From assembly GCA_001412425.1 (NCBI GenBank), contig LKUH01000174.1:1-39566 (forward strand): a stretch of DNA of 39,566 nucleotides. The letters are read 5' to 3'. Below, piece by piece: positions 9,292 through 28,140 of the stretch (the stretch's first letter is position 1; each line of letters begins with the position of its first letter). Source of the stretch: Candidatus Cloacimonas sp. SDB (GTDB taxonomy: Bacteria; Cloacimonadota; Cloacimonadia; Cloacimonadales; TCS61). The notes beneath the pieces are model-generated. The model saw only the letters and a list, made by a program, of their open reading frames with translations, had not been told where the DNA came from and made no database searches. A program made the translations under genes and the position numbers.

Positions 9292-11298
9292 TTATTTCAT
9301 TAGCACCAGTTTTCTGCTCACCTTGTATTGTCCTGATTTTAATCTGCAGAAATAAATACCGGATGAAACCGGGTTACCGGCATCATTCCTGCCATTCCAC
9401 ACTATCTCGATCGTTTCTGTTATCCTCTCTGGAAGTTTATCAAATACTTTCACTTGTTGTCCTTTCAAATTGTAAATAACCAGCTCCGGTTCCTGGCCGG
9501 TTTCAGTCTGTTCGGTGTAACTCCTTTCAAGAGAAGTGATTAGATTAAAAGAAATTGTAGTGTTGGGGTTAAAAGGGTTGGGATAATTTGTAAGTTTTAG
9601 AGGATTATCCGGAATCATTTCCGGATCAGAGTTCACAATAAATGTCAGGTTTTCAAAATAATTAAATGTGCCATTGTAATTACCCAATATCAAATCAAGA
9701 TCGCCGTCATTATCCAGATCGGCTAAAGCCGGAGTTGTGTTCTGCCCTCCGCTTAATCCTGAAACAGGATCAGGATCTTCAACCCAGTTGCCATGATATT
9801 CGGAGAAAAACTGCACTTCACCCCACAGATTACCTGTGATCAGGTCATAATTATTATTGAGAGTGAGATCGCCAATAGTTGGAACACAATTAGTACCGAC
9901 ATCTATACCACCAAAATAATTAACGATCTCTACCCAGTCCGGATCCTCAGGTGTTCCCTGATTTTCAAAATAAAAAAGAATTCCCGCTTCATTTCCAGCT
10001 ATTATATCAAGATCACCGTCGTCGTCCAGGTCAAATAAACGTGGGGCAGACCAGCCTCCCAGAGACACGGAAGCCAGTACATCACTGTGGAAAGTAAAGC
10101 CTGTTCCGTTGTTTTCATGAAAATATAAATTACCGCTGAGATCTCCCACAATTGCATCTGCAAGTCCATTGTTATTTACATCACCCAGGGTTATGGCAGA
10201 ATAAATAGAATGATCAATACCTGAAAAATATCCGCTGTCCTCCGACCAGGCAGGAGAATTGGAAGTTCCGGTATTTTCATAATATTTGATATTACCAAGA
10301 TTGCTGCCGCTCACCAGATCCAGATCACCGTCATTATCAAAGTCATAAAAAACTGGATTACTGGCTCCACCCACATCAATAATACCACCGAATAATTCGG
10401 TATTCGCCAGCCAGTCTGGATTTTCAGGGGTTCCGCCGTTCTCATAATACTGCAAAGGACCTGCAGCATTGCCGAAGATCAGATCAAAAGTGCCATCTCC
10501 ATTAAGATCCGCAATGCCGGGTGAATTCCAGTAAGAATCATTGCCCAGACCTGTTAGAACTGCATTATTTGCCTGCCAGTTGCCATTTTGAGGTGTACCG
10601 GTATTTTCGTAATAGACAAAACCATGGGAATCTCTTCCCACCACAATATCTTCATCACCATCTGCATCCAGATCACAGAAGTGAGGATAGGCATAAAGTC
10701 CCACATCACCGATTACTAACACATCACTTTCCGAAAATTCAGCATTATATTCCGTTCCGATATTGAAATAGATCTTTACGGTTCCGTTCTCACTAAAACC
10801 TGTTACTAAATCAAGATTACCATCACCATCAACATCTGCCAGATCCGGGGCAGGATTCTGTCCTGTACTCAAATTGGAAAAGAAATTATCGATCTGCTGA
10901 AATAATGCTGCTTCAGCCGAACCGATATTTTCATAATAGTTTAAACCGGTATATCCTCCTGATATTAAATCAAGATCGCCGTCATTATCCAGATCTTTAC
11001 ACACGGCCATTTCAGCATCCAGGGAAGAGACCAGGGCGAAAATATCAGGTCCGGGTGCAAATGCCGGAGTAACTGCAGACCCCGTATTTTCAAAGTAAAA
11101 GGGAGCATCGTTGATGCTGCCCAGAATCAAATCCTGATCTCCATCTCCATCCAGATCGGCAAAACGCGGTTGCGAGAAGGAGAGACTGGGCACTCCGCTG
11201 CTGTTGAAAATCGCATCGTTCTGCTGCCAGAGTTGTGCCCTGAGCGCTTGTGTGGTCAGACAAAATAAGATCGGAAAAATAATTTTATAAATATTCAT
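9292..11298 (-). CDS. Secreted FG-GAP/VCBS-repeat beta-propeller protein with T9SS C-terminal sorting domain
   Basis: I chose the ATG at 11298, which has an AAGGAG RBS (ORF-track start 11337). A signal peptide is present. About 10 repeats each pair a Ca-binding DxDxDG loop (DLDGDGDQDLI, DLDNDGDLDLISG, DVDGDGNLDLV and others) with a YYENxGT strand. The last 98 aa (9292-9588) are NYPNPFNPNTTISF...IYNLKGQQV...SSGIYFCRLK. Confidence 0.85.
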   Translation of the reverse strand: MNIYKIIFPILFCLTTQALRAQLWQQNDAIFNSSGVPSLSFSQPRFADLDGDGDQDLILGSINDAPFYFENTGSAVTPAFAPGPDIFALVSSLDAEMAVCKDLDNDGDLDLISGGYTGLNYYENIGSAEAALFQQIDNFFSNLSTGQNPAPDLADVDGDGNLDLVTGFSENGTVKIYFNIGTEYNAEFSESDVLVIGDVGLYAYPHFCDLDADGDEDIVVGRDSHGFVYYENTGTPQNGNWQANNAVLTGLGNDSYWNSPGIADLNGDGTFDLIFGNAAGPLQYYENGGTPENPDWLANTELFGGIIDVGGASNPVFYDFDNDGDLDLVSGSNLGNIKYYENTGTSNSPAWSEDSGYFSGIDHSIYSAITLGDVNNNGLADAIVGDLSGNLYFHENNGTGFTFHSDVLASVSLGGWSAPRLFDLDDDGDLDIIAGNEAGILFYFENQGTPEDPDWVEIVNYFGGIDVGTNCVPTIGDLTLNNNYDLITGNLWGEVQFFSEYHGNWVEDPDPVSGLSGGQNTTPALADLDNDGDLDLILGNYNGTFNYFENLTFIVNSDPEMIPDNPLKLTNYPNPFNPNTTISFNLITSLERSYTEQTETGQEPELVIYNLKGQQVKVFDKLPERITETIEIVWNGRNDAGNPVSSGIYFCRLKSGQYKVSRKLVLMK

Positions 11299-11347
11299 GT
11301 TTTTACTCCTTGATTTTAGACATATTTTTTTTCTCACAGAAAAATCG

Positions 11348-14089
11348 TTATCTCAGAAGAACCATTTTCCTGGTTAGCTCCTGCTTAGCAGTTTTCATTC
11401 GACAAAGATAGACACCTGATGAAACCGGGTTACCGGACTCATCCGTACCATCCCAAATTACTTCGATCGTTTCTGAAATTCCCTTTTGAATCAGATCATA
11501 TCCTTTTACTTTTTGCCCTTTCAAATTGTAAATAATCAGCTTCAGATCTTTAGAATTATCAAACTGATCAGTGTAAAGCTGACTATAACCAGCTGGCAGA
11601 TGGACAGATATAGTGGTAGATGGGTTAAAGGGATTGGGATAATTAGCCAGCTGCAGGCTGATATTCGGCATATCCTGATTTTCAGTGGAATTTATGGCTT
11701 CTGCCCTGATGGTAACCATCAATTCATCGTTTGCTGGTATATCAGTTCTAACATAGATCACCTGGGGATCCAGAAAACTATTGATCTGTTCAATTTCGCC
11801 ATTAATGACTTCATATTCAAATTCTCCGGCGGGGAGCAGAAACTTGATCCTGGCATTATTAAAAGTTTGTGGATGCTGATTATTTATGATCGCTGTTACA
11901 CTGTCTGCCGTACCCTCGTTATCGGGGAAAAATTCGATCTCCAGATTTTCGCCGTACCAGCCCGCCGAAATTGTCTGTTGCGGATAAATAATGTCATTTT
12001 CCACCTTAATGATCCGGTAAGCCCTTTCACCGTCGCAGGTTGATTCTGTAGCCAGGTTGAAGGGTGGGTTAAAAATACTACCACTGTTGGAATGAATATG
12101 CCCGTATAACGCCAGGTCAATACCCATTTCTTCAAGTTCTATCTGTTCCGAAAAATCCATATGATAGAACAGAATGCGCAAATCACTGTCAGCAGAATTG
12201 GCAATTTGATTTTGCAGCCATTGCATTTGACCTGCAGTAAAGCTTTCATACCCATAAATATCATACATGTATTCATCATAATTGAGGTAAGCTTCCATTC
12301 CCATAAAAAAGGCATTTCCGTAATTGAAACTGTAATTCTGAGTATAATAAGGTTCAGCTGCAGGCGGATTTTGCAACCAGTTCCAGCCAAAGAATCTCCA
12401 CCAGTTCCTGCGAGCTGTTCCCTGAGGAGGAGGAGATGCCTGCCAGCCGCCCAGATCGTGATTTCCAGCAACCAGATAGATCGGGACTTCAAACTCTGTT
12501 AAAAGCTGCTGAGCTTTCGTGTAAACTCTTCTATTCTCAAAATCCTCCATTTCACCTTCATTGACCAGATCGCCGGTGATAAGCACAAATTCCGGATTGA
12601 TCAAATTTATATCTGCAATCACTTCACGCAGATCTTCCATTTCGGAAGTATCGGTGAGAGACTCCGGATCCGGATAGTAAATATGAGTGGGAAGATGACT
12701 GTCGGTTATGTGAATGAAAGAATATTCTTCTTCATATTGCGGTATGATGAGAACAGCATTTTCAGTAGTATCTGTTTCCAGGTTGGAAGCCCCTACGGTA
12801 AGGTCATAAAGTTCGAATAATTGCGGTCCGGGTGCAGTTACATTATGAAACCAGCGCTGCAGTTCGCTATTGTAATTACTGCTGAAAATTGGCAACTCCA
12901 GACTAAAATCACCAAAATTCAACTCAGCAAACCAGCCGGCAGTGGACTCATCAGCCAGACATTGGATCGTAAATTCTGCACCCGGAGTAACGATTTCCGG
13001 TATGTTCAGTAAAGGTTTTTGGATTACGGTTAAAGTATCTCCTATCGGTACCGCTTCGGTCTGAATGAAGATCTGACCAAGAGAATAATAAACTATTTCA
13101 GTTTCATTGATCACAAATTCAGAAAATTCCAGTCCTGCTTCCCCGCAGGAAATTCCGGAAAAATTGAGTTTCAGAAGATCCTGTTTTCCTGAAAAAGAGA
13201 AATTGCCTGAAAAACTAAGTTCAATAACTCCAGCAACTGAATCGTCTAAAGAAATTTCACCATTCTCGGATAACGTGTTTTCCACATCATAATGACTGAA
13301 CAGCAGGATATCGTTATTATATTCCAGCCTGAAATGATAATTGTCCACCTGCTGGACTTGACCAAAATAAGTCAGTTCAACCGGAATAGCAAATACTTCT
13401 GAAGAAATTATATGTTCCTGAGCAATAGAAATGATATAGCCATTTTCTGCAGATTGCAGATCATCAAGAAAACGGGGATGCAGCTGATATTCCTGCCAGG
13501 AATATGATACTATGCCGCGGATGTGGGAAAACAGGTAATTCTGGATTATGGGAATGCCTTCTGCAGCGAGATCGATGAACCCGTTACTGATCACACAAGT
13601 TCCGGAACCGTCATCAATCTGCCAGTAGCCCCATTCATCAAATCCGGTACTTACCATAACATCGGAGAGTTCAACTAAAACACTCTCATAAGCCTCTTCG
13701 TTAGAAACTTCCCAGCTGGAAACCGCAGTATATTCTGGAAGTGGATTTCCTGAGCTTACTATTTCCAGCGAAAAGATGGGGCTCAGCTCAGTGAATCCGT
13801 AATATTCATAGACCTGACCGGTTAGAACCACGCTATCTCCGATTGCCGGCTCATAATCATTGTTATAGATATAGATTCCATTCCAGGGTCCTCCAGCCGA
13901 AGATTCAATAAAAAATCTGCCATTGCTGAAATCCGTTCCGGTAACTATCCCACCCGTTGTAACAGTTTGTCCTTCATAATTAGAAGGATATGTGCCGTCA
14001 CCTGAATTTGTAGTGAATTGAATATCAAAAATGCTGATTGCATGTAGTAATGCTGACACACAAAAAAGGCTGATGGTTAATAACCTCAT
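11348..14089 (-). CDS. Secreted multidomain calcineurin-like metallophosphoesterase with nuclease-type OB-like N-domain, cohesin-like domain and T9SS C-terminal domain
   Basis: ATG 14089 has an AGGAG 5 nt upstream; the ORF-track start at 14092 is a TTG one codon earlier. After the signal peptide comes an N-domain, IFDIQ...YEGQTVTTGGIVTG...FFIES...GIYIY...IGDSVVLTGQVYEYYGFTEL, like the N-domain of ExeM/NucH-type extracellular nucleases. The phosphoesterase motifs are HITDSHL, TGDLVNEG, GNHD and GHIH. The last 98 aa (11348-11644) form a T9SS CTD. Confidence 0.85.
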   Translation of the reverse strand: MRLLTISLFCVSALLHAISIFDIQFTTNSGDGTYPSNYEGQTVTTGGIVTGTDFSNGRFFIESSAGGPWNGIYIYNNDYEPAIGDSVVLTGQVYEYYGFTELSPIFSLEIVSSGNPLPEYTAVSSWEVSNEEAYESVLVELSDVMVSTGFDEWGYWQIDDGSGTCVISNGFIDLAAEGIPIIQNYLFSHIRGIVSYSWQEYQLHPRFLDDLQSAENGYIISIAQEHIISSEVFAIPVELTYFGQVQQVDNYHFRLEYNNDILLFSHYDVENTLSENGEISLDDSVAGVIELSFSGNFSFSGKQDLLKLNFSGISCGEAGLEFSEFVINETEIVYYSLGQIFIQTEAVPIGDTLTVIQKPLLNIPEIVTPGAEFTIQCLADESTAGWFAELNFGDFSLELPIFSSNYNSELQRWFHNVTAPGPQLFELYDLTVGASNLETDTTENAVLIIPQYEEEYSFIHITDSHLPTHIYYPDPESLTDTSEMEDLREVIADINLINPEFVLITGDLVNEGEMEDFENRRVYTKAQQLLTEFEVPIYLVAGNHDLGGWQASPPPQGTARRNWWRFFGWNWLQNPPAAEPYYTQNYSFNYGNAFFMGMEAYLNYDEYMYDIYGYESFTAGQMQWLQNQIANSADSDLRILFYHMDFSEQIELEEMGIDLALYGHIHSNSGSIFNPPFNLATESTCDGERAYRIIKVENDIIYPQQTISAGWYGENLEIEFFPDNEGTADSVTAIINNQHPQTFNNARIKFLLPAGEFEYEVINGEIEQINSFLDPQVIYVRTDIPANDELMVTIRAEAINSTENQDMPNISLQLANYPNPFNPSTTISVHLPAGYSQLYTDQFDNSKDLKLIIYNLKGQKVKGYDLIQKGISETIEVIWDGTDESGNPVSSGVYLCRMKTAKQELTRKMVLLR

Positions 14090-14148
14090 CAATTCTCCTG
14101 TTCAATTTTCAGACTAAATTCATCTGGCCCATCTATTTGTAAAGATTT

Positions 14149-17021: not shown

Positions 17022-18113
17022 ATGATAAAAAGATCTCTGTTTTTATGTTTATTTGTGATATTTTTTACAAATCAGATTCAGGCTCAAAGTGTAGCAAGGT
17101 GGCACACATCATTGGGTAATTTTGAAGTGATGCTTCGAGAAGATCTTGTCCCTATAACTGCCCAGAATTTTATCGACCTGACCAATTCCAATTTCTACGG
17201 CGGACTTTTATTTCACCGGGTTATTGACGATTTTATGATTCAAGACGGTGATCCTCTGGGAACCGGTTACGGTGGACCTGGTTATACCATTCCGGACGAA
17301 TTTCATGATGATCTGCTCTATGATTCCGCAGGTGTGATTGGAATGGCTAATGCCGGACCAAACACTGGCGGTTCTCAGTATTTCATCACTCTGGTAGCAA
17401 CACCCTGGCTTAATTACAATTATTCCGCTTTCGGTAATGTGACAGCAGGGATAGATATCGTGCAGGACATAGGAGATGTTGAGACAACGGGAGCTAATGG
17501 AAGTCCACCCAATTACCCCCTGGAGCCGGTTTACATAGACAGTATACGCATTGTCACTCCGCAGTTGAACGATTTCACACCGCAGGAAGATACTATTGCT
17601 GCCGAAATCGGCGACGCTGTTATTTTTGCCGTTTTCTCCAATGATCCCGACCTGGATTATTCCTGGTATGTAAACAATGTTCTGCAGACCGAATCCACGT
17701 TTTTCTTCACTTATTTCTGTACAGAAGCAGGAGAATTTATCATTTATTCTTCAGTTTCCAACGGTGAATATGAATATCCCACCTACTGGTTGGTGCAGGT
17801 CAACGGGTCCGGTAGTGATGATAACATTGTGAAACCCAGACATAAATTGTTTCAGAATGAACCAAACCCCTTTAATCCCAACACCATGATAAGGTATGAA
17901 CTGGTTTCTGAAACCGAGATTGACCTTTCTGTTTTTAATATTAAAGGGCAGATTGTTAAAACCCTGGTTAAGACTGATCAGAAACCAGGGATATATACCT
18001 TAAACTGGGATGGAACTGATCAAGACAATCTGCCTTTACCTTCCGGTTTGTATTTCTACAGATTAAAGACACAGAAGGATTCCCAGATAAAAAAGACCCT
18101 GTTACTGAAATAG
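17022..18113 (+). CDS. Secreted cyclophilin-type peptidyl-prolyl isomerase with Ig/PKD-like linker and T9SS C-terminal domain
   Basis: An AGGAGG RBS and a signal peptide are present. The cyclophilin motifs are FHRVIDDFMIQDGDP, GVIGMANAGPNTGGSQYFIT and FGNVTAG. The C-terminus is NEPNPFNPNTMIRY...VFNIKGQIV...SGLYFYRLK. Confidence 0.9.
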   Translation: MIKRSLFLCLFVIFFTNQIQAQSVARWHTSLGNFEVMLREDLVPITAQNFIDLTNSNFYGGLLFHRVIDDFMIQDGDPLGTGYGGPGYTIPDEFHDDLLYDSAGVIGMANAGPNTGGSQYFITLVATPWLNYNYSAFGNVTAGIDIVQDIGDVETTGANGSPPNYPLEPVYIDSIRIVTPQLNDFTPQEDTIAAEIGDAVIFAVFSNDPDLDYSWYVNNVLQTESTFFFTYFCTEAGEFIIYSSVSNGEYEYPTYWLVQVNGSGSDDNIVKPRHKLFQNEPNPFNPNTMIRYELVSETEIDLSVFNIKGQIVKTLVKTDQKPGIYTLNWDGTDQDNLPLPSGLYFYRLKTQKDSQIKKTLLLK

Positions 18114-18267: not shown

Positions 18268-19311
18268 ATGAAAAAATTATTACTTCTCTGTTTATTTATT
18301 TTTGGAATGTTTTTACCAAACTATGCTCAAACTTATCATAATACCAACATAACCTCAGATGCAATCTGGTATCCAATCGGTAATCCTCATATTGTTGATG
18401 GGAATTTTTCCGTTTCTACCGGTGTCACACTCACTATATCAGCAGGCTGTATTGTAAAGTTCAATTCCAGCAGATACATTACCATAAGCGGCACATTAAA
18501 TGCTGTTGGAACGGTAAATGATTCAATTCTGTTCACTTTGAATGACGGGCAGTCCGGCACCTGGAATTATCTGAATTATTCCACCGGTTCTTCCGGCACC
18601 ATATCCTACTCTAAATTTGAACAGGGTAATTATACAATTTACCTCAATGGTTCGAATCTGGTTACCATCAATAACTGTTTATTTGAGAATAATTCTTACG
18701 GCTTACGGATTTATAATAGTGCTATTGTAGAATTATATAACAGTATTTTGGAAAATAATAATTATGGAATCTATGTCAATGTCAGTTCTCCGCTCTTACA
18801 TGGCAATTTGATAACCGGTAACGGAGATTATGGTCTAAAGCTCAACGGCAGTTGCATTCCCGATCTGGGAACCATTGCAACTGAGGGCAACAGCATTTAT
18901 AATAATGGTACTTACGATATTTATAATGGAACTGAAGATATCTCTGCTCTGTACAATTACTGGGGACCGATCGGACATTTTATGATTCCAGGCAGGATCT
19001 ATGATGTAGATGATGATGATGGACTGGGTGAAGTATTTTATGTACCCTGGGGAAATGCTTCTCACACACTGGCATTAACTCAGGGCGATCCACCCACAGA
19101 TCTTCTGATCTCCCAGGAAGAGGGAATTATTCAACTGAACTGGACTGCTGCTCCCGATGCCACATTTTATGAAGTTTACACCTGCTCGCATCCAGACACC
19201 ATGCTTACCAGCTGGACTCAGGCGGCTACGGAAGTTTACGATACGAATTGGTCAAAAACAGGTGATCCTCTGAAGGAATTCTATTTTATTCTTTCCATTA
19301 TCGGTGAATAA
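18268..19311 (+). CDS. Secreted right-handed parallel beta-helix repeat protein with FN3-like C-terminal module
   Basis: An AAGGAG RBS and a signal peptide are present. The sequence contains PbH1-like repeats (NNSYGLRIYNSAIVELYNSILENNNYGIYVNVSSPLLHGNLITGNGDYGLKLNGS). The last 74 aa (19087-19308) are PPTDLLIS...IQLNWTAAPDATFYEVYT...KEFYFILS. Confidence 0.7.
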   Translation: MKKLLLLCLFIFGMFLPNYAQTYHNTNITSDAIWYPIGNPHIVDGNFSVSTGVTLTISAGCIVKFNSSRYITISGTLNAVGTVNDSILFTLNDGQSGTWNYLNYSTGSSGTISYSKFEQGNYTIYLNGSNLVTINNCLFENNSYGLRIYNSAIVELYNSILENNNYGIYVNVSSPLLHGNLITGNGDYGLKLNGSCIPDLGTIATEGNSIYNNGTYDIYNGTEDISALYNYWGPIGHFMIPGRIYDVDDDDGLGEVFYVPWGNASHTLALTQGDPPTDLLISQEEGIIQLNWTAAPDATFYEVYTCSHPDTMLTSWTQAATEVYDTNWSKTGDPLKEFYFILSIIGE

Positions 19312-19317
19312 AAAATT

Positions 19318-20097
19318 TTACAAAGCAGCTAAATGATCTTCTATTATTGGGAAGCTTGAGCGCAGAGCTTCTTTTATTACGTTAAATTTATCAGTAGATA
19401 ATTCACCTGTCCATTCATCCATGAAGATTTTCTTAAACTCAATGGATAAGCAGCAAATTGAACCAGGGAAGGTGTAATGCAGCCAGCGGGAAAACCAGCC
19501 ACCCTCGAATTTCACATTCTTTCTTACATCCAGAGATCTGCCATCTATTTCATATTGCTGAAAGTGCTTCTGAAGTTTATCTATTAAGCCGTCCCAGGTC
19601 TTAGGCATATTGCCGGTTGCCAGAACAATATCGGGATTATTCTGCTGATCATCAGGAGCAGTTTCAGGTCCGTTACGGCGATGGTTATAACTGTGAATAT
19701 CATAAACAAACAGTTTCTGATAGCTGTTTTTCAATTGAGATAAGTGTTTGTACAGTTCCAGATAAAAATCGTCGTACTTCTGATAGGAAGTTTCAAGATG
19801 CTGTAAATTTGGTTCATTAATCCGGACTTTTAGGCCCCAGGCATCTTCCGGTGCCAGGTAAAAGGAACTTTCCCGCTTGCGGTTCAGATCAAATTCAAAC
19901 CGACTGTAATTTGCTATTATATTATTGGAACAAAGCTCTGCCAGAATATCTGTAAAAGGATCTTCTTCTCTCAGTTTTATCTCAGCCGAGATAGCCATAT
20001 TGGCTGCACATTCGGGGCTTAGAAAACTTCCCGCATGAATTGCTGTGCAAATAACCGGTGTTTGTGCATCAATTGTAAATCGAGCTGTTTGTTCCAT
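19318..20097 (-). CDS. N-formylglutamate amidohydrolase (FGase, PF05013-like) family protein
   Basis: AIHAGSFLSPE near the N-terminus and VYDIHSYN in the middle resemble the HxG and DxHS metal-site motifs of FGase-family hydrolases. The gene starts 20 nt downstream of the M16 peptidase gene and has an AAGGAAA RBS. Confidence 0.55.
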   Translation of the reverse strand: MEQTARFTIDAQTPVICTAIHAGSFLSPECAANMAISAEIKLREEDPFTDILAELCSNNIIANYSRFEFDLNRKRESSFYLAPEDAWGLKVRINEPNLQHLETSYQKYDDFYLELYKHLSQLKNSYQKLFVYDIHSYNHRRNGPETAPDDQQNNPDIVLATGNMPKTWDGLIDKLQKHFQQYEIDGRSLDVRKNVKFEGGWFSRWLHYTFPGSICCLSIEFKKIFMDEWTGELSTDKFNVIKEALRSSFPIIEDHLAAL

Positions 20098-20117
20098 TAA
20101 ATTTCCTTAAAATTTTA

Positions 20118-22712
20118 CTAATCAACCATCAGATTAACGTTTCCGGAAGGCAGAGAAACCACAACTGCTTTCTGGCTGAAATATTTACTGGCAACCCTTT
20201 GAATATCTTCAGGTGTAATATCCTTATAGCGTTCATTATATCTGAAAATATAATCGTACCCCAGACCCTGTGCTTCGTAATGGGTCATGTATTCCGGTAA
20301 ATTATTGTCATCCATATAGGAAATTAGAATCTTCTGTCTCTCTTCCAGTGCCAGATCAATCTCGGATTGTGTCAAGTTTCCGGCGCATAATTCATCCAGA
20401 ACATTGTTCATAACAGCGATCAGCTCATCTTTTTTATCTATGGAAGTCTGACTGGTAAGTCTGAAATAGCCTGATTCTTGATTATAACCATAGCGAGGAA
20501 AAGCAAAATAGGCCAGATCGTTGGTTCCCCGCACAGCTTTATGTAACCTGCCTCTGCTGCCGCTTAACAGGGATTCTATTACTATCAAGACATTGAAGTC
20601 CGCATCATTAAAGGCGGGTGCAACACAATTTACAGAAATATTGACCTGTTCCAGCTCATAAGTGTTAATAAAAATATCGTTGAGTTCGGGAATCTGATAA
20701 AATTCTGCTTCGACAGCAATATCTCCCCGGGGTAATTTACTGAAAAGATCCTGCGCTTCTGATTCTGCCTCTTCGTCGGAAATATCACCAAAAAATGTGA
20801 TTATTGCCCGATTGAATTTAAAGTAATCTTCATAGGTTGAGATAAGGTCTTCTCTGTTGGCTTTCATCATGATGTCCAGTTTTGCCTGACTGGATAATCC
20901 GTCTCTGGTATCTCCGTAAAGTACAGATTTTAAATAATCCTGATGAATATCATCCGCATCGCTGCGGCTTCTTTTAAAAGCGGCTTCTTCAGCTTCCTTA
21001 TAAAGCTCAATTTCGCTTTCCGGAAAAACAGGGTTATTCATCGCATCCAGGATGATCTCTTTCAGCTTATCATAATCATCCGTCAGACATTTAAACTCGA
21101 TCTCGGTGCCGTAGGAATTTGTTGTTACAGAAAAGCGGACAGCATGATCTTCCAGCCATTCGGTGATATCCAGTGGATCATAGTTCTGCGAACCCCTGAA
21201 CATCAGTTCAGTCATAAAGGAGATCATTCCGACATTTTCTTTGCTCTCGTAATTGCTGGAAAGGGGGAGATGTATAACACCTTTTATGATAGGCTTTTCG
21301 TTGTTAAATCTGTGGATCAGGGTTATTGAATCATTCAGTAAATGGCGCTGCGGGTCGGTTTTAACGATATCAACTGCTGTGGATTTTTCCAGTAACTCCC
21401 TGTCACCTTCAGGAACAGAATAGAAAACTGTACGGTTCTTAGGAAGCAGGTGTCTTTTAAGAACTGCCTGCAGATCCGCAACGGTAAGCTCTTCATATTT
21501 TTTCTGTAGAGCATCATAGGCATCCGGAACACCATAACGGATAAGATTCCAGCCGATGCGGTTGCATTCACTCTGGACTCCCGGAGTTGAAAGCAGCCTG
21601 GAAGCTTTGCGCCGAGTGACAATATCCTCAATATCCGCTGCTGTAAAACCTTCCCGGCTGTAATTTTCGATCTCAGAATCGATTATTTTAGCTATATCTC
21701 GAAGATCGGCTGGATCTTTTGCTTCAAATCCGATATTGATGGATCCCTCCGGTGCGGTTGCTGAAATAGATGCGTAACCGTAAACATAATTAACAAGCTT
21801 AAGTTCCTCTGAGAGTTTAAACCTGATTGGGGATCTCCGCTTGGCAAAAAGAATATTCAAAGCAGCATCCAGGGCTACATAATCGCCGTAATACGCTGCC
21901 GGCACTATATAAGTTAGAAAACCATTGGGCAGATCAACCGCAAACTCTTCGATCAATTCATAATCGCCATTTCTGATATTCTGGGTTGGCAGATAAACCG
22001 GCTGGATCTGCTTGCGGGAAAAATCCTTGAAAGTAGCCGTGATCTGATCCATCACCTCCTGAGAATCAAAATCTCCCACCGCAACAAATATCATGTTATT
22101 GGGAGTGTAATGCTGCTGGTAATATTCCTGCAGCTCTTCCCGGGTAATGGTTTTGAAAAGGTCTGTGTAGCCAATAACCGGATATCTGTAATTGGAATGA
22201 GGTGAACTTATCTCATTCACCCTCTGATAGACCTGAGAACGGGGCGGACTTGATCTCATCACGATCTCTTTAAGTATCACCTGCTGTTCCCGGGCAACTT
22301 CTTCAGCATTAAAAGCACAGAACTGAATCTGCTCGGAAAGTATCTCCAGAGCCTGATCTTTATATAACTTATCCACCACAATGTGATAGGCGGTTAACTC
22401 ATTCGTTGTATAAGCATTTACAATTGAACCTATCTCCGAACCCAAAGCTTCGTATTCCGCTTCCGTTCTTTTAGTTGTACTTCCTCCCGAAACTACATGC
22501 TCCAGATAATGGGAAATACCGGCTCCCAGAAACCTGCCCTCGTTAACCGAACCGGTCTTAACAAAACAGTAAAACCCTACGGAAGAATTATTACTGCTCT
22601 CTTTAACTGCTATTGTCATGCCGTTGGGAAGAGTTTGAGTTAAGACTTCATCGCTGCCAACCAGTAAACTGAACAGCGCAATTATGATTAAACTGAAAAA
22701 TATTTTCTTCAT
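20118..22712 (-). CDS. Secreted M16 (pitrilysin/insulinase) family zinc peptidase, double-length
   Basis: A signal peptide is present. The inverted zinc motif GISHYLEHVV (HxxEH) lies in the N-terminal quarter. The 864-aa length is consistent with four M16-like half-domains. Confidence 0.85.
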   Translation of the reverse strand: MKKIFFSLIIIALFSLLVGSDEVLTQTLPNGMTIAVKESSNNSSVGFYCFVKTGSVNEGRFLGAGISHYLEHVVSGGSTTKRTEAEYEALGSEIGSIVNAYTTNELTAYHIVVDKLYKDQALEILSEQIQFCAFNAEEVAREQQVILKEIVMRSSPPRSQVYQRVNEISSPHSNYRYPVIGYTDLFKTITREELQEYYQQHYTPNNMIFVAVGDFDSQEVMDQITATFKDFSRKQIQPVYLPTQNIRNGDYELIEEFAVDLPNGFLTYIVPAAYYGDYVALDAALNILFAKRRSPIRFKLSEELKLVNYVYGYASISATAPEGSINIGFEAKDPADLRDIAKIIDSEIENYSREGFTAADIEDIVTRRKASRLLSTPGVQSECNRIGWNLIRYGVPDAYDALQKKYEELTVADLQAVLKRHLLPKNRTVFYSVPEGDRELLEKSTAVDIVKTDPQRHLLNDSITLIHRFNNEKPIIKGVIHLPLSSNYESKENVGMISFMTELMFRGSQNYDPLDITEWLEDHAVRFSVTTNSYGTEIEFKCLTDDYDKLKEIILDAMNNPVFPESEIELYKEAEEAAFKRSRSDADDIHQDYLKSVLYGDTRDGLSSQAKLDIMMKANREDLISTYEDYFKFNRAIITFFGDISDEEAESEAQDLFSKLPRGDIAVEAEFYQIPELNDIFINTYELEQVNISVNCVAPAFNDADFNVLIVIESLLSGSRGRLHKAVRGTNDLAYFAFPRYGYNQESGYFRLTSQTSIDKKDELIAVMNNVLDELCAGNLTQSEIDLALEERQKILISYMDDNNLPEYMTHYEAQGLGYDYIFRYNERYKDITPEDIQRVASKYFSQKAVVVSLPSGNVNLMVD

Positions 22713-22849
22713 GCCGCCTCACACTTTTTTGTAGGAAACAGGCGCATTTTTCATTCCAGCTTCAGATCTGTGACAAATAATTAAATAATTTGACATATCC
22801 GGCACATGTTTTAAATGAAAAATGAATATTAAATAATCAGGAGGTTTTG

Positions 22850-24523
22850 ATGAAGAACATAATTCTTGTGTTTTTGATTTTTTCGATTTTTTGCTCTCTT
22901 CATTCTCAATTAATCATTACAGGAGTAATCGACGGACCTTTAACTGGTGGAATACCCAAAGCTGTCGAATTGTATGTAACTTCAGATATTGCAGACTTAT
23001 CGATCTATGGTATTGGTTGTGCTAATAATGGCGGCGGAACTGATGGCGAAGAGTTTACTTTTCCGGAGGTTACAGCAACAGAGGGAGACTTTATTTATCT
23101 AGCAACTGAATCAGATTCTTTTAATAGCTGGTTTGGATTTTTTCCAGACTATATTGATGGATCAGCAACAAATGTAAATGGTGATGACGCTATAGAGTTA
23201 TTTCAAAACAATATCGTGATTGATATATTTGGAGAAATTGATGTTGATGGTACAGGAGAACCATGGGAATATATGGATGGTTGGGCATATCGTGTCACGA
23301 ATACAGGTCCGGATGGAAGTACATTTGTACTTTCCAACTGGTATTTTTCTACACCTAATGCTCTTGATGGAGAGACGACAAATTCTTCAGCTGCAGTTCC
23401 ATTTCCTACAGGTAGTTATGGAAGTGAACCACCAAATCCTATTATAGTTTCAACCTATGCAGTAAGTAATTCAGCAATTAATGTTAAATATAATATGTCC
23501 ATCACGTCTGTGGTACATTCAGATTATTCCCTCTCCGGTACAGCAAACATAACCTTCAGTAATGCAACCATAGATGGCGCTGACCCCACCATCGTCCATT
23601 TAACCGGAGCTTCTGCCAATATGGTGGGAGATGCTGTTCTCGATAATATTGCCGATAGCGAGAATGCCAGTGATTACGATTTTTATGCCGGTATTATGCC
23701 TGTTGCCTATACAAACACGGTATATTCAGGCAGAACTACCATTCAAAACGGGTACAACGCCACTTTCCAGGCTCGGGTCTCTGCCAACGACGCCTATAAT
23801 AATGTCTGGATCCACGATGCAGCCGGAGCTTATAATGGAATTATGGTCTATGATTCAAATTTTGACGCCCTGGTCAGTGTGGGCGATGAGATATTGCTGG
23901 TAGCCCGGCGCACTGAATTTAATGACTTAACAGAACTGGAAGACCCGCTATTGCTGTCCGCAGCGGCAGGAACTCATTACAGTGCAGCTGTTATAGCCGG
24001 ATCCGAGATCGCTGCCACAACTGCCGCCAATACAAATCCGGCTGAGAAATGGGAAGGTCAGCTGGTGCAGATCGAAAATGCCCAGGTAGAAAGTTATGAC
24101 AGCGGTAATTATCTTTACACCTGCACGGATGACGGAGGTTCAACCTATTTTAAAATGGGTGATAATGTTGATTACCATTTTGGAAGTATTACCATTACCG
24201 TGGGAGAGAGTTATAATATTACCGGAGTTGTAGATTTTTACGCCGGTGAATACCGCATAAATCCCAGAACTCAGGCTGATCTGGAAGAATCGGGTTCCGG
24301 GCAGCTTCCTCCTCCTGAAAATGTGGTTATCCTGCGGGAGGGCGGAAATATTACCATCACCTGGGATGATGTGACCGGAGCATCCAGTTACAATATTTAC
24401 AGTGATTCTGATCCCTATGGCTCCTTTAGCACACTGGAAGATAATATTCCTGCTACCCTTACCGAATGGAGTGAAACCATTCCGGCTGATGAGAAAAAAT
24501 TCTATCTGATTAAAGCGGAATAG
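22850..24523 (+). CDS. Secreted lamin-tail-domain (LTD) + Ig-like + nuclease-type OB-like domain protein with FN3-like C-terminal module; no catalytic domain recognised
   Basis: ATG 22850 has a GGAGG 5 nt upstream (ORF-track TTG at 22847). The N-domain is LIITGVIDGPL...AVELYV...NGDDAIELF...IDIFGE...PWEYMDGWAYR, an LTD as found in extracellular nucleases. The later segments NVWIHDAAGAYNGIMVYD...VGDEILLVARRTEFNDLTEL and WEGQLVQIENAQV are OB-like. The last 72 aa span 24305-24520. Confidence 0.6.
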   Translation: MKNIILVFLIFSIFCSLHSQLIITGVIDGPLTGGIPKAVELYVTSDIADLSIYGIGCANNGGGTDGEEFTFPEVTATEGDFIYLATESDSFNSWFGFFPDYIDGSATNVNGDDAIELFQNNIVIDIFGEIDVDGTGEPWEYMDGWAYRVTNTGPDGSTFVLSNWYFSTPNALDGETTNSSAAVPFPTGSYGSEPPNPIIVSTYAVSNSAINVKYNMSITSVVHSDYSLSGTANITFSNATIDGADPTIVHLTGASANMVGDAVLDNIADSENASDYDFYAGIMPVAYTNTVYSGRTTIQNGYNATFQARVSANDAYNNVWIHDAAGAYNGIMVYDSNFDALVSVGDEILLVARRTEFNDLTELEDPLLLSAAAGTHYSAAVIAGSEIAATTAANTNPAEKWEGQLVQIENAQVESYDSGNYLYTCTDDGGSTYFKMGDNVDYHFGSITITVGESYNITGVVDFYAGEYRINPRTQADLEESGSGQLPPPENVVILREGGNITITWDDVTGASSYNIYSDSDPYGSFSTLEDNIPATLTEWSETIPADEKKFYLIKAE

Positions 24524-24695
24524 AAGAGTACAGGGAAAAAACAATCTGATACCAGGCTCAGGTTCAATCTTCAGATTAAGAGCCGGTCTCAACAGCTATA
24601 TGTTTAAGAGACTGTTATTTAGGATTGAAACTGCAGCAAAAGGTGCCGAAATCCAGCTTTTTTTCACCAGCCGTCATATTCTCTTGACTTCCCGA

Positions 24696-24723
24696 CCTCT
24701 CAAAAAAAGCATGCCTTGAGAGG
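24696..24723 (+). promoter_or_regulatory. Hairpin whose 3' arm contains the Shine-Dalgarno of the endonuclease I gene
   Basis: CCTCTCAA-aaaaagcatgcc-TTGAGAGG is a perfect 8-bp stem with a 12-nt loop. The GAGAGGA in the 3' arm is the only SD-like element before ATG 24734. Confidence 0.3.
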
Positions 24724-24733
24724 ATTATTGTAA

Positions 24734-26563
24734 ATGAAATTGCCTTATTTGATTTTAATTATTTTACAGATATTTTCTATTACTTTAACAGCTGATCCGC
24801 CGGCAGGTTATTACAATTCTGCAGAAGGTTTAAGCGGCGAAACCCTGAAGTCGGCATTGCATGATATCATTTCCGGACATACACAATTCAGCTATGACGA
24901 CCTGAGAGATTTCATTTTACCTGCTGCTGATGAGGATACTTTAAATACAGATAATATAATTTTGATCTACACAGGCAGATCACAGCCAAAATCAACCTAT
25001 AACAGCGGATCAGATGGCTGGAACCGCGAGCATGTCTGGGCTAAATCCCGCGGTGATTTCGGCAATTCAGCACCCTGTGGTACCGACGCCCATATGGTGC
25101 ATCCCTGCGATGAATCCGTAAATTCTTTACGAGGGAACAAAGATTTCGATAACGGTGGTTCAGCAGTATATGATCTCGGTTATTTAGCGGGTTACACAGA
25201 TGCTGATTCCTGGGAACCCCGGGATGAAGTTAAAGGTGATGTTGCCCGAATCATCTTCTACATGGCTTGCAGATACGAAGGTGAAAGCGGTGAACTGGAC
25301 CTGGAACTGGTAGATTATATTCAAACCCTCACCAGCAATGATCCTTTTACAGGTAAGTTATCCTCTCTGTATCAATGGCATCTTGACGACCCGCCCGATA
25401 GTTGGGAAAGATTGCGCAATGACAGGGTTTACGGCTATCAGAATAATCGCAATCCTTTTGTGGATCATCCCGAATATGTTAACTATATCTGGGGTGATGA
25501 AGCACCCGAAGATAATGTGCCACCCGAGATTTCTACTGTTTCTGTATTGGATGCGGAAAATATTGTAGTTGTTTTTTCCGAATATGTCGATCAGACATCA
25601 ACAGAAACAGTCTCTAATTATCAGATAGATAATGGTATTGGCACACCTCTGTCAGCCACTCTGGGTTATAACAGTAGCGACTCTTCTGTGCTGCTGGAGG
25701 TGAATTCACTCACACCGGGAGTTTCCTATACCATAACAATAAATAATATCGCAGATCTCCATGACAACGTGATTGCTGACAATTCCCAATATATATTTGA
25801 AATGACTTCCATAGTAGAAATTCTGGCTGAGAGTTTTGAAACAGGAACTTCAGGCTGGGCGCTATACAGCTCTGCCAGCAATAAAGACTGGGAGAGAACC
25901 AATGATACTGGCTATGCTCATCCCAACTCTGTGCCTGAAGGAAATTACTACATGTATATGAATAATTACGGGGCTGATGTTGCTGGTAATGACTGGCTTA
26001 TCTCACCGGAAATAGATCTGACCAATTATACGGATCCTCAATTAAGTTTCTATAATTGGTACAGCTATAACGATACAGAGATCGGACTTAAGGTTAAATA
26101 TTCTTTGGATTATAATGGCAGCCAGGATCCTGATGAATCAACCTGGGTTACGATCCATGAATCCCTGGCTTCCCAATATGCCACCTGGGAACTGGAAGAG
26201 GGATTCAACCTTTCCGATCTGGCAGGTGAATCTGATCTCCATTTTGCCTTTCATTATACTTCTTCAGGAACAGGTGCAAATTCCTGCCGAGCCTGGGCGA
26301 TTGATAGTGTGATGCTTTCTGCGGAATACATTGAAAACGTTCAACTTCCTGTACCGCAGGACTTGCAGATCAACTATTCTGCGGGACAGATCAGCCTTTC
26401 CTGGCAGCCTGTGACCGGTGCTGTTTCTTACAATATCTACAGTTCACCAGATCCGGAAGCAGAATTCACAGACTGGGAATTTATTGTCACAGTTACGGGT
26501 GAGACAACCTGGAATACAATTCCCGCAGCAGAAAAAATATTTTATAAAGTAACTGCTCAATAA
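24734..26563 (+). CDS. Secreted endonuclease I family nuclease with Ig-like, MAM/choice-of-anchor-J-like and FN3-like C-terminal domains
   Basis: A signal peptide is present. The N-domain is YYNSAEGLSGETLKSALHDII...ILIYTG...WNREHVWAKSRG...DAHMVHPCDESVNSLRGNKDF...NRNPFVDHPE, with endonuclease I (EndA/Vvn, PF04231-type) motifs. It is followed by PPEISTVSVLDAENIVVVF... (Ig-like) and ESFETGTSGWALYS...NDWLISPEIDL. The last 72 aa span 26345-26560. Confidence 0.8.
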   Translation: MKLPYLILIILQIFSITLTADPPAGYYNSAEGLSGETLKSALHDIISGHTQFSYDDLRDFILPAADEDTLNTDNIILIYTGRSQPKSTYNSGSDGWNREHVWAKSRGDFGNSAPCGTDAHMVHPCDESVNSLRGNKDFDNGGSAVYDLGYLAGYTDADSWEPRDEVKGDVARIIFYMACRYEGESGELDLELVDYIQTLTSNDPFTGKLSSLYQWHLDDPPDSWERLRNDRVYGYQNNRNPFVDHPEYVNYIWGDEAPEDNVPPEISTVSVLDAENIVVVFSEYVDQTSTETVSNYQIDNGIGTPLSATLGYNSSDSSVLLEVNSLTPGVSYTITINNIADLHDNVIADNSQYIFEMTSIVEILAESFETGTSGWALYSSASNKDWERTNDTGYAHPNSVPEGNYYMYMNNYGADVAGNDWLISPEIDLTNYTDPQLSFYNWYSYNDTEIGLKVKYSLDYNGSQDPDESTWVTIHESLASQYATWELEEGFNLSDLAGESDLHFAFHYTSSGTGANSCRAWAIDSVMLSAEYIENVQLPVPQDLQINYSAGQISLSWQPVTGAVSYNIYSSPDPEAEFTDWEFIVTVTGETTWNTIPAAEKIFYKVTAQ

Positions 26564-28059: not shown

Positions 28060-28140
28060 GATAAATACTAAGAATTTACTTGTCAGCAATGCCACGGAAT
28101 AATCTTTTAGTTTCAGAATATTTAAGGTCCGGAGGATAAT

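What the first reader, a model, noticed from the sequence alone, without database searches (positions are those of the whole stretch)
19087..26563. A second, non-T9SS C-terminal module (about 72 aa, FN3-like) shared by three secreted proteins
Three signal-peptide proteins with unrelated N-terminal parts all terminate in a colinear module. The proteins are the beta-helix protein, the LTD/OB protein and the endonuclease I protein. The modules are:
- 19087-19308: PPTDLLISQEEGIIQLNWTAAPDATFYEVYTCSHPD...W...KEFYFILS
- 24305-24520: LPPPENVVILREGGNITITWDDVTGASSYNIYSDSDP...EW...IPADEKKFYLIKAE
- 26345-26560: LPVPQDLQINYSAGQISLSWQPVTGAVSYNIYSSPDP...TW..IPAAEKIFYKVTAQ

The last two are both exactly 72 aa. 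By my count they are about 39% identical to each other. In every case the protein ends 1-6 residues after the final FY-x-(I/V) strand.

None of these three proteins carries the NYPNPFNP...KGQ T9SS domain found on the four other secreted proteins in the window. Strictly C-terminal placement, together with apparent mutual exclusivity with the T9SS CTD, suggests the module is more than a generic FN3 spacer. It could be an alternative sorting, anchoring or surface-attachment tag.
Basis: partly seen in the sequence, partly recalled or inferred. Interest (0 to 1): 0.62.

Follow-up and report, generated by a model that had tools for sequence, protein, structure and literature searches.

The report
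Terminal, strand-short FN3 module on secreted enzymes
Three secreted proteins of this Cloacimonadota genome end in the same small fibronectin-III-like domain that lacks its last strand. It sits where related enzymes carry a known secretion or docking tag, so it is probably a portable localisation module, but this is not proven.

Summary
Three signal-peptide proteins (18268-19311, 22847-24523, 24734-26563) end in one homologous module of about 72 aa (BLASTP E 1e-17 to 1e-6). There is no fourth copy in the window, and none of the three carries the T9SS type A CTD found on four other secreted proteins.

The module has a fibronectin type III fold (AF2 pLDDT 90; TM 0.79 to FN3 domains), but only strands A-F; the G strand is missing. 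It belongs to a distinct subfamily found mainly in Cloacimonadota and Delongbacteria.

Among 50 non-redundant members:
- 35 end within 8 aa of the stop codon, against 5 of 1548 generic FN3 hits.
- 11 have tails of 9-45 aa.
- 3 sit at the N-terminus, directly after the signal peptide.
- None is tandem, and none co-occurs with a T9SS CTD.

In endonuclease I paralogues the same slot, after a choice-of-anchor J domain, holds a T9SS CTD, a dockerin or this module. In a relative, two neighbouring genes exchanged the module by gene conversion.

The terminal bias and the exclusivity therefore hold. The N-terminal cases, the variable tails and the lack of any homology to T9SS CTDs argue against an obligate C-terminal sorting signal. 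A position-tolerant attachment or recruitment module fits better. The function remains inferred.

The parts
18268..19311 (+). Gene 1: signal peptide, NosD-like parallel beta-helix region, then C-terminal module 1
   Evidence: ORF list. Pfam NosD matches residues 91-230, E 5e-9. Orthologues in L001 and L161 keep the same ...EF(Y/F)F(I/L)L(S/G)IIGE* end.
19078..19308 (+). Module 1, the most divergent copy; ends ...KEFYFILSIIGE
   Evidence: Translation. BLASTP vs module 3: E 2e-9. Scores 70 bits against the subfamily HMM, whose training set included this sequence.
22847..24523 (+). Gene 2: signal peptide, ExeM/NucH-like OB region (weak DUF5689 match), then C-terminal module 2
   Evidence: Orthologues L001:3948-7874 and L161:3786-6665 also end in the module.
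24299..24520 (+). Module 2; ends ...EKKFYLIKAE
   Evidence: Translation. BLASTP vs module 3: 43% identity, E 1e-17. HMM score 88.5 bits.
24734..26563 (+). Gene 3: signal peptide, Endonuclease_1, Big_5, choice-of-anchor J, then C-terminal module 3
   Evidence: Pfam Endonuclease_1 E 1e-38 and Big_5 E 2e-9. NCBIfam NF038128, 62.6 bits against a cut-off of 30. Ten orthologues at 47-96% identity all end in the module.
25823..26314 (+). Choice-of-anchor J domain (residues 364-527 of gene 3), directly upstream of module 3
   Evidence: NCBIfam NF038128 domain match. In paralogues the same domain is followed by a T9SS CTD or a dockerin.
26336..26560 (+). Module 3; ends ...EKIFYKVTAQ. Six predicted beta strands (A, B, C, C', E, F)
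   Evidence: Translation. AF2 of the module alone: pLDDT 89.9, six strands. The same six strands (545-608) appear in the full-length model, with block-mean pLDDT 80-89 over residues 541-609.
9295..9588 (-). T9SS type A CTD of the FG-GAP protein (9292-11337); contrast set
   Evidence: TIGR04183 27.4 bits (cut-off 23); PF18962 28.9 bits.
11351..11644 (-). T9SS-type CTD of the metallophosphoesterase with an ExeM/NucH-like N-terminus (11348-14092); contrast set
   Evidence: FlgD_ig 29.1 bits (cut-off 27). TIGR04183 20.4 bits, just under its cut-off of 23.
17862..18110 (+). T9SS type A CTD of the cyclophilin protein (17022-18113); contrast set
   Evidence: TIGR04183 37.5 bits; FlgD_ig 38.5 bits.
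37540..37782 (+). T9SS type A CTD of the 559-aa putative metalloprotease (36106-37785); contrast set
   Evidence: TIGR04183 29.3 bits.

Best explanation
The module is a lineage-specific derivative of the bacterial fibronectin type III domain, found mainly in Cloacimonadota and Delongbacteria. It keeps strands A-F and has lost or degraded the G strand. It is used as a single-copy, portable end-cap on Sec-exported extracellular enzymes: nucleases, beta-helix proteins, peptidase-like and ice-binding-like proteins.

Shown:
- the homology between the copies and the FN3 fold;
- the missing G strand;
- the strong bias towards the protein termini;
- exclusivity with T9SS CTDs;
- positional equivalence with a T9SS CTD and with a dockerin in paralogous endonucleases;
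- exchange of the module between neighbouring genes by gene conversion.

Inferred: because cargoes this diverse share it, and because it replaces two known localisation modules, it most likely localises its carrier. It would do so by binding a common partner non-covalently. That partner could be a cell-surface or scaffold component, and the F-strand edge left open by the missing G strand is a possible binding face. This is dockerin-like logic, which tolerates either terminus. It is not a cleaved, strictly C-terminal sorting signal.
For: - Homology between the three copies.
- FN3 fold: AF2 pLDDT 89.9 with six strands; Foldseek TM 0.79 to neogenin FN3 domains and matches to CtXyl5A Fn3, 3mpc and Pel3. 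The closest solved sequence is 3mpc (E 7.5e-10), and the profile ends at residue 75 of its 103 residues.
- Missing G strand: when a generic FN3 repeat is the last domain of its protein, about 17-20 residues follow the end of the profile; in the module 0-4 follow.
- Distinct subfamily: terminal modules score 40-127 bits per domain, generic repeats 13-38 bits. Pfam fn3 misses the subfamily (E 0.02-0.07) but scores a generic FN3 at 42.7 bits.
- Census of 50 non-redundant members: 35 within 8 aa of the stop, 7 with tails of 9-30 aa, 4 with tails of 31-45 aa, 3 N-terminal after a signal peptide, 1 internal; always one copy per protein. Generic control: 5 of 1548.
- 0 of 37 module ORFs carry a T9SS CTD, although 29 CTD ORFs lie in the same set of loci.
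- Slot equivalence: the Endonuclease_1 + choice-of-anchor J core ends in the module (P0153-57, P0164-68), in a T9SS CTD (P0173-P0201 and others) or in a dockerin (P0169-72). The minimal architecture 'Endonuclease_1 + module' (L003) parallels many proteins of about 340 aa built as 'Endonuclease_1 + T9SS CTD'.
- Cassette behaviour: in L001 the modules of two adjacent genes share about 88% nucleotide identity over the last 150 nt or so, against 47% upstream.
- The three-gene arrangement, each gene with its module, is conserved in L001 and L161.
- Dockerin/cohesin surface complexes are already proposed for Cloacimonadota (PMC8542988).
Against: - No partner, binding site or localisation has been observed; the function rests on positional analogy.
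- FN3 domains on bacterial extracellular enzymes often have no assigned role.
- No conserved neighbouring gene points to a partner.
- The G strand is present in some Delongbacteria members (tails such as ...KNATKESPKSIIVK), so an open strand edge is not universal.
- The tails after the module vary from 0 to 45 aa.
- The census rests on about 1.9 Mb of loci retrieved through sequence patterns plus fetched proteins, not on whole proteomes. Thirty-one of the 50 members were in the HMM training set (the 19 that were not divide 11/4/3/1 across the same four classes).
- The exhaustive search listed only tandem-repeat giants, so the true size and spread of the subfamily are unknown.
Confidence: 0.4

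Rival explanations
1. The module is a secretion signal. It would be either a third, FN3-derived class of T9SS C-terminal domain, or a structural recognition element for a type II secretion system that carries these CTD-less proteins across the outer membrane.
For: - Strong C-terminal bias and exclusivity with type A CTDs.
- It sits in the same slot as a T9SS CTD, after a choice-of-anchor J domain.
- It is found mainly in lineages whose loci also encode T9SS-CTD proteins. T9SS is reported as probably present in Cloacimonadota (PMC11285876).
- Both folds are beta-sandwiches.
- For T2SS there is a precedent: loops 3 and 5 of the terminal Fn3 domain of Pel3/PelI act as secretion determinants (PMC7949064), and Pel3 is among the structural matches (ranks 34 and 36).
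- T9SS cargo with CTDs unlike type A or B is known (F. johnsoniae ChiA; from memory, not checked here).
Against: - No homology to type A CTDs (hhalign probability 0.4%). No match to TIGR04183 or TIGR04131. No T9SS CTD among the top 50 structural matches.
- The model has six strands in FN3 order, not the 3+4 seven-strand CTD sandwich that PMC11285876 calls essential.
- Three members are N-terminal, and eleven have 9-45 aa after the module. A T9SS signal read at the C-terminus should not tolerate this, although a T2SS-type structural signal could.
- Whether these genomes have a T2SS was not established (searches found nothing).
Confidence: 0.2
2. The module is an ordinary accessory FN3 domain with no role in localisation. 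It could be a folding or solubility aid, or a weak binder of polymers or substrates. It would simply have spread by domain shuffling in these phyla, and it tolerates loss of its last strand when nothing follows it.
For: - The profile hits about 16,600 representative proteins, and the fold is plain FN3.
- The closest solved relative is the Fn3 of a cellulosomal xylanase.
- PMC7949064 notes that the function of the Fn3 domain of PelI remains unclear.
- There is no conserved terminal motif and no conserved partner gene.
- Erosion of the G strand (KNATKESPKSIIVK, then KNATK, then nothing) looks like relaxed constraint at a free end.
Against: - A spacer needs a domain on each side, yet 49 of 50 members are terminal, and the module is never tandem.
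- The cargoes are too diverse for a shared substrate.
- The truncated form is conserved across endonuclease orthologues from 96% down to 47% identity and across three syntenic genomes.
- Gene conversion keeps the neighbouring modules alike.
- Complete exclusivity with T9SS CTDs, although generic FN3 + CTD proteins do occur (2 of 155).
Confidence: 0.3
3. The shortened ends are artefacts or recent decay: frameshifts or assembly errors truncating normal FN3 domains, or pseudogenised tails.
For: All the data come from MAGs and metagenomes. One L008 ORF does look truncated further downstream.
Against: The same stop position recurs in 35 non-redundant members from independent assemblies and sources. 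It is also conserved in orthologues of all three window genes. AF2 folds the six-strand unit confidently.
Confidence: 0.03

Closest known systems
Bacterial fibronectin type III domain (Pfam fn3 PF00041). Closest solved example: the Fn3 module of Clostridium thermocellum CtXyl5A (PDB 3mpc, 5g56)
   Same: Same fold and same core signature: W in strand B, GA-x-SY-x-(I/V)Y in strand C, (Y/F)Y-x-V-x-A in strand F. Profile vs 3mpc: E 7.5e-10. Foldseek TM 0.76-0.79.
   Different: - Ends at strand F; the roughly 17-20 residues of FG loop and G strand are missing.
- Scores below the Pfam cut-off (13.8 bits against 25).
- Single copy and terminal, not internal or tandem.
- Carries its own motifs: S(S/D)-x-DPYG-x-F, and KKFY before strand F.
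T9SS type A C-terminal domain (TIGR04183 / PF18962)
   Same: C-terminal beta-sandwich of about 70-85 aa on signal-peptide proteins of FCB-group bacteria. It occupies the same slot in paralogous endonucleases. The two are mutually exclusive.
   Different: - No sequence homology (hhalign 0.4%) and no model match.
- FN3 strand order with six strands, against a 3+4 seven-strand sandwich (PMC11285876).
- The module can be N-terminal or followed by tails.
- Cleavage and attachment are unknown.
Type I dockerin (PF00404) on Cloacimonadota enzymes
   Same: A small non-catalytic terminal module that replaces the T9SS CTD on otherwise equivalent enzymes (P0169-72). It is usually C-terminal, though not necessarily so (my own knowledge of dockerins). 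Dockerin/cohesin complexes are proposed for Cloacimonadota (PMC8542988).
   Different: Unrelated fold (a Ca-binding helical repeat against a beta-sandwich). No cohesin-like partner is known for the module.
N-terminal Fn3 domain of pectate lyases Pel3/PelI (T2SS substrates)
   Same: A terminal FN3 domain on a secreted beta-helix enzyme, whose loops act as secretion determinants (PMC7949064). It is a structural match (4u4b, TM 0.67).
   Different: Seven strands, N-terminal, gammaproteobacterial; sequence similarity to the module was not assessed. Whether the module's hosts have a T2SS is unknown.
'Choice-of-anchor' domain logic (NCBIfam NF038128, choice-of-anchor J)
   Same: Gene 3 has this domain immediately before the module. 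Its paralogues have it before a T9SS CTD or a dockerin.
   Different: That such domains are named for preceding alternative sorting or anchoring tails is my recollection of the NCBIfam naming rationale, not something tested here. The module is not among the recognised tails.

Membership tests
Fibronectin type III fold | Beta-sandwich with FN3 strand order; structural similarity to solved FN3 domains | tested here: met
   AF2 pLDDT 89.9. All 50 listed Foldseek matches are FN3-type domains or FN3-containing proteins, with TMq up to 0.80.
Fibronectin type III fold | Seven strands A, B, C, C', E, F, G | tested here: not met
   Only six strands in the isolated model (12-16, 19-23, 33-38, 49-54, 58-61, 70-75) and in the full-length model. 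The proteins stop 0-4 aa after strand F, whereas generic repeats have about 17-20 aa more.
Fibronectin type III fold | Sequence match to Pfam fn3 above the gathering score | tested here: not met
   Best score 13.8 bits, E 0.07, against a cut-off of 25. Other subfamily members give E 0.02-0.07. A profile of the subfamily does reach PDB FN3 domains at E 7.5e-10.
T9SS type A CTD (TIGR04183/PF18962) | Match to the family models; conserved PxP and GxY motifs and a K-x-hydrophobic C-terminal strand | tested here: not met
   No hit at E<=1. hhalign against an alignment of local CTDs gives probability 0.4%.
T9SS type A CTD (TIGR04183/PF18962) | Strictly C-terminal position | tested here: not met
   35 of 50 lie within 8 aa of the stop, but 3 are N-terminal and 11 have tails of 9-45 aa.
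T9SS type A CTD (TIGR04183/PF18962) | T9SS-dependent export with cleavage by PorU and attachment | not testable with these tools
   Needs genetics or proteomics.
T9SS type B CTD (TIGR04131) | Match to the family model | tested here: not met
   No hit at E<=1 for the three proteins or the three modules.
Dockerin | Duplicated Ca-binding F-hand segments; Pfam PF00404 | tested here: not met
   No Pfam hit. The fold is all-beta.
Sortase/exosortase-type C-terminal tags (LPXTG, PEP-CTERM, GlyGly-CTERM) | Short motif, then a hydrophobic helix, then a basic tail at the C-terminus | tested here: not met
   Read directly from the sequence: the proteins end ...FYLIKAE...FYKVTAQ...FILSIIGE with no hydrophobic helix. 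No NCBIfam hit.

The most novel reading that the evidence does not exclude
The FN3 cassette without a G strand is a previously unrecognised localisation tag of Cloacimonadota and Delongbacteria. It could be a new class of secretion-system recognition domain. Alternatively it could be an anchor that is completed by a strand donated from a surface partner (strand complementation). Either would define a third route, beside the T9SS CTD and the dockerin, by which these uncultured degraders display extracellular enzymes.
Probability: 0.2. Interest if true: 0.75.

Novelty: new variant of a known kind. Interest (0 to 1): 0.45.

Why it matters
Cloacimonadota are abundant, uncultured degraders of polymers in anaerobic digesters and anoxic waters. 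How they export and display their hydrolases is known only by analogy: T9SS CTDs, and dockerins (PMC8542988).

A portable terminal module that alternates with those two tags on the same enzyme cores would point to a further localisation route. It would also give annotators a usable marker for extracellular proteins that current Pfam and NCBIfam models leave unlabelled.

A stable six-strand FN3 with an open edge would interest structural biologists as well. If the module turns out to be only an accessory FN3, the finding is a useful annotation and little more.

Tried and rejected
- **Word-indexed homologue searches with the module alignments.** These returned only 2 and 13 short fragments, too few for statistics. 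The fragments do all end in the module.
- **Exhaustive profile search.** The listed top 150 were all giant proteins with 7-43 tandem FN3 repeats, ranked by summed score. This proved the link to generic FN3 but hid the single-copy relatives.
- **Exact-sequence look-up of the window's own proteins.** Not on record.
- **Search for a conserved neighbour that might be a sorting enzyme or partner.** The M16 peptidase and FGase genes that sit between the module genes are conserved only in the close relatives L001 and L161, not in other module-bearing loci. Rejected as partners.
- **Full-length AF2 of protein 3.** Run to see whether the linker supplies the missing strand. No extra strand appeared. The tool gives no contacts or PAE, so docking of the module onto its neighbouring domain could not be judged. 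The nuclease domain was modelled poorly.
- **Literature on T2SS in Cloacimonadota.** Nothing usable.
- **Divergent T9SS CTD.** Considered and rejected on hhalign, the family models and the fold.
- **Assembly artefact.** Considered and rejected because the same ends recur in independent assemblies.

Full report
**1. The observation**

The window encodes three + strand ORFs: 18268-19311 (347 aa), 22847-24523 (558 aa) and 24734-26563 (609 aa).

The modules are clearly homologous:
- Module 2 vs module 3: 31/72 identical (43%), no gaps, E 1e-17.
- Module 1 vs module 3: 30% identity, E 2e-9.
- Module 1 vs module 2: 34% over the first half, E 1e-6.

A profile of the three modules, run over all six frames of the window, finds these three copies at E about 1e-40 and nothing else better than E 0.86.

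The N-terminal parts are unrelated to one another:
- Gene 1: a NosD-like beta-helix.
- Gene 2: an ExeM/NucH-like OB region with a sub-threshold DUF5689 match.
- Gene 3: Endonuclease_1 + Big_5 + choice-of-anchor J (NF038128, 62.6 bits).

All three start with sequences that look like Sec signal peptides. This is by inspection only.

None of the three matches a T9SS CTD model. The four other secreted proteins of the window do: TIGR04183 at 27-37 bits for three of them, and FlgD_ig at 29 bits for the fourth. The only correction is 43% identity rather than 39%.

**2. What the module is**

No Pfam or NCBIfam model reaches significance on it. The best is fn3 at E 0.07.

AlphaFold2, run on a 12-sequence alignment of modules, gives a confident model (pLDDT 89.9). 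It has six strands, at residues 12-16, 19-23, 33-38, 49-54, 58-61 and 70-75. The same six strands appear in the full-length model of gene 3 (residues 545-608; block-mean pLDDT 80-89 over residues 541-609).

Foldseek against the PDB returns FN3-type domains or FN3-containing proteins in all 50 listed matches. These include neogenin FN6 (TMq 0.79), the CtXyl5A Fn3, 3mpc and the N-terminal Fn3 of Pel3. No T9SS CTD is among the top 50.

A profile of 31 modules finds 3mpc at E 7.5e-10. The alignment stops at residue 75 of that 103-residue chain.

An exhaustive profile search of 1.84 billion representative proteins gives 16,626 hits at E<=1e-3. The top hits are proteins with 7-43 tandem FN3 repeats. 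Scored domain by domain:
- Those generic repeats reach only 13-38 bits. When one is the last domain of its protein, about 17-20 residues follow the end of the profile: the FG loop and the G strand (...VNxxGESxxS...).
- The terminal modules of endonuclease orthologues score 40-127 bits and stop 0-1 residue after the profile.

The module is therefore an FN3 domain made of strands A-F, without strand G, and it forms a recognisable subfamily. Its motifs are SW-x-x-V-x-GA-x-SY-x-IY-S-x-x-DPYG-x-F ... KKFY-x-V-T-A.

**3. Distribution and position**

Names attached to homologues place the window in Cloacimonadota.

Two pattern-based scans, one of species-representative genomes and one of metagenome contigs, gave 160 loci. 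Together with the window this is 1.9 Mb. I translated these in six frames and scored them with the subfamily HMM. High-scoring members come mainly from Cloacimonadota and Delongbacteria.

After removing redundancy at 90% identity, and adding the fetched proteins, there are 50 members at 55 bits or more:

| Position of the module | Members |
|---|---|
| Ends within 8 aa of the stop | 35 |
| Followed by a tail of 9-30 aa | 7 |
| Followed by a basic, low-complexity tail of 31-45 aa | 4 |
| N-terminal, directly after a signal peptide | 3 |
| Internal (a Bacillota protein, probably a generic FN3) | 1 |

- Several tails in the 9-30 aa class look like a retained G strand, for example ...KNATKESPKSIIVK and ...ANSKGKSSQSNIVETPSAKKIKGVLLK.
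- The three N-terminal members are two tandem DUF3494-like genes in L008 and an 801-aa beta-helix-like protein in L010.
- No protein carries two copies.
- Of 1548 generic FN3 hits (20-45 bits), only 5 end within 8 aa of a stop.
- Nineteen of the 50 members were not in the HMM training set. They divide 11/4/3/1 across the same four classes.

An HMM built from local T9SS CTDs finds 29 CTD-bearing ORFs in these loci, often in the same locus as a module gene. None of the 37 module ORFs has one. Two of 155 generic-FN3 ORFs do.

**4. Evidence bearing on function**

(a) Slot equivalence.
- Homologues of gene 3 fall into orthologues of about 590-614 aa (plus two 866-aa forms) and 47-96% identity. All of them end in the module (P0153-57, P0164-68).
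- Paralogues with the same Endonuclease_1 ... choice-of-anchor J core end, at the same junction, in one of two other ways. Some have a T9SS type A CTD (...NYPNPFNPST...KMLLLK; P0173-P0201 and many more). Others have a dockerin (P0169-72; ...YGDVDGNGEIQA...).
- A minimal 'Endonuclease_1 + module' protein (L003, 332-codon ORF) mirrors dozens of proteins of about 340 aa built as 'Endonuclease_1 + T9SS CTD'.

(b) Cassette behaviour. In L001, a Cloacimonadaceae MAG with the same gene order, the modules of the adjacent LTD/OB and endonuclease genes share about 88% nucleotide identity over their last 150 nt or so. The sequence just upstream shares 47%. The L001 endonuclease module is closer to the window's LTD/OB module (59%) than to the window's endonuclease module (48%). 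This indicates gene conversion between neighbouring genes.

(c) Conservation. The three-gene arrangement, each gene with its own module, is kept in L001 and in L161, where the endonuclease is 62% identical.

(d) No partner gene. The M16 peptidase and FGase genes that lie between the module genes recur only in those close relatives.

(e) No homology to T9SS CTDs: hhalign probability 0.4%.

**5. Interpretation**

A spacer cannot sit at a protein end, and the module is never tandem.

Several findings argue against a signal that is read at the C-terminus in the way a T9SS CTD is:
- the N-terminal members;
- the variable tails;
- the FN3 ancestry;
- the absence of any conserved terminal motif or hydrophobic anchor.

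What fits best is a position-tolerant binding module that localises diverse Sec-exported enzymes to a common partner. This is the logic of dockerins, which occupy the same slot and are already proposed to build surface complexes in Cloacimonadota (PMC8542988). The open F-strand edge is an obvious candidate interface, but it is not universal. I give this reading 0.4.

A secretion-recognition role remains possible (0.2). A new T9SS CTD class would have to accommodate the N-terminal cases. A T2SS-type structural signal would not, and it has a precedent in the Fn3 domain of Pel3/PelI (PMC7949064). Whether these genomes have a T2SS was not established.

An accessory FN3 with no localisation role is a serious rival (0.3). 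An assembly artefact is excluded by recurrence across independent assemblies.

**6. Comparison with what is known, and novelty**

By fold and by profile the module belongs to the FN3 superfamily. It fails two formal tests of that family: it has six strands rather than seven, and it scores below the Pfam gathering cut-off.

It is not a member of the T9SS type A or type B CTD families, nor of the dockerins or the sortase-type tags. All of these were tested and not met.

It works, positionally, like a T9SS CTD or a dockerin. I rate it a new variant of a known kind: a truncated, terminal, lineage-specific FN3 subfamily that current libraries do not annotate.

**7. Limits**

- There were no whole proteomes, no localisation data and no multimer modelling.
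- The census depends on loci retrieved through two peptide patterns.
- The exhaustive search output was dominated by tandem-repeat proteins, so the true size and spread of the subfamily are unknown.

Noticed in passing
L001:7659-7874 and L001:10004-10219: Gene conversion between the modules of two adjacent genes (the LTD/OB-like and endonuclease I orthologues). They share about 88% nucleotide identity over the last 150 nt or so, against 47% just upstream.
   Followed up: yes
Proteins P0169-P0172 (homologues of window 24734-26563): Cloacimonadota endonuclease I paralogues end in a duplicated dockerin segment instead of a T9SS CTD or the module. The same enzyme core therefore exists with three different tails.
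   Followed up: partly
L068/L144:5909-10285, L159:2-622, L081-L086, P0281, P0282: A sub-group of very large Cloacimonadota proteins carries the module followed by a tail of about 42 aa that is basic and low in complexity (e.g. VSDTKKTNVRMSGSLRRDNVRRVEPDLKADVSTDNVKEYNPTK). The tail sequence is not conserved between sub-groups.
   Followed up: no
L008:4009-4725 and L008:4925-5929: Two tandem DUF3494/ice-binding-like genes in a Cloacimonetes MAG carry the module at the N-terminus, directly after the signal peptide, and have no C-terminal tag. The first ORF looks truncated relative to the second.
   Followed up: partly
window 11348-14092 (-) and 22847-24523 (+), with 24734-26563 (+): Two proteins match the same N-terminal OB-like region of the ExeM/NucH extracellular nuclease profile: one has a metallophosphoesterase domain and a T9SS CTD, the other has the module. 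Together with the endonuclease I gene, this suggests a locus devoted to degrading extracellular nucleic acid.
   Followed up: no
window 9295-9588 (-) and 11351-11644 (-): The T9SS CTDs of these two proteins span 94 residues against a 72-position model, so they carry an insertion of about 20 aa (e.g. ...SLERSYTEQTETGQEPE...). One of them falls just under the TIGR04183 cut-off (20.4 bits against 23).
   Followed up: no
window 24785-25501 (residues 18-256 of the endonuclease I protein): AlphaFold2 with a 43-sequence alignment modelled the Endonuclease_1 domain at pLDDT below 50, although the Pfam match is strong (E 1e-38). The downstream Big_5, choice-of-anchor J and module regions came out mostly at pLDDT 78-94, with a dip to about 70 at the linker before the module.
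   Followed up: no
window 19318-22712 (-): An FGase-family gene and a signal-peptide-bearing fused double M16 peptidase (864 aa) lie on the opposite strand between the module genes. The arrangement is conserved in L001 and L161 but not in more distant module-bearing loci.
   Followed up: yes
window 26962-29364 (+): Two adjacent phosphofructokinase paralogues (365 and 407 aa). The pair is conserved in L001 and L161.
   Followed up: no
L005 (CAZADO010000317.1, labelled Alphaproteobacteria): This contig carries two module-ending ORFs and a T9SS-CTD ORF, which suggests the contig was mis-binned from an FCB-group organism.
   Followed up: no
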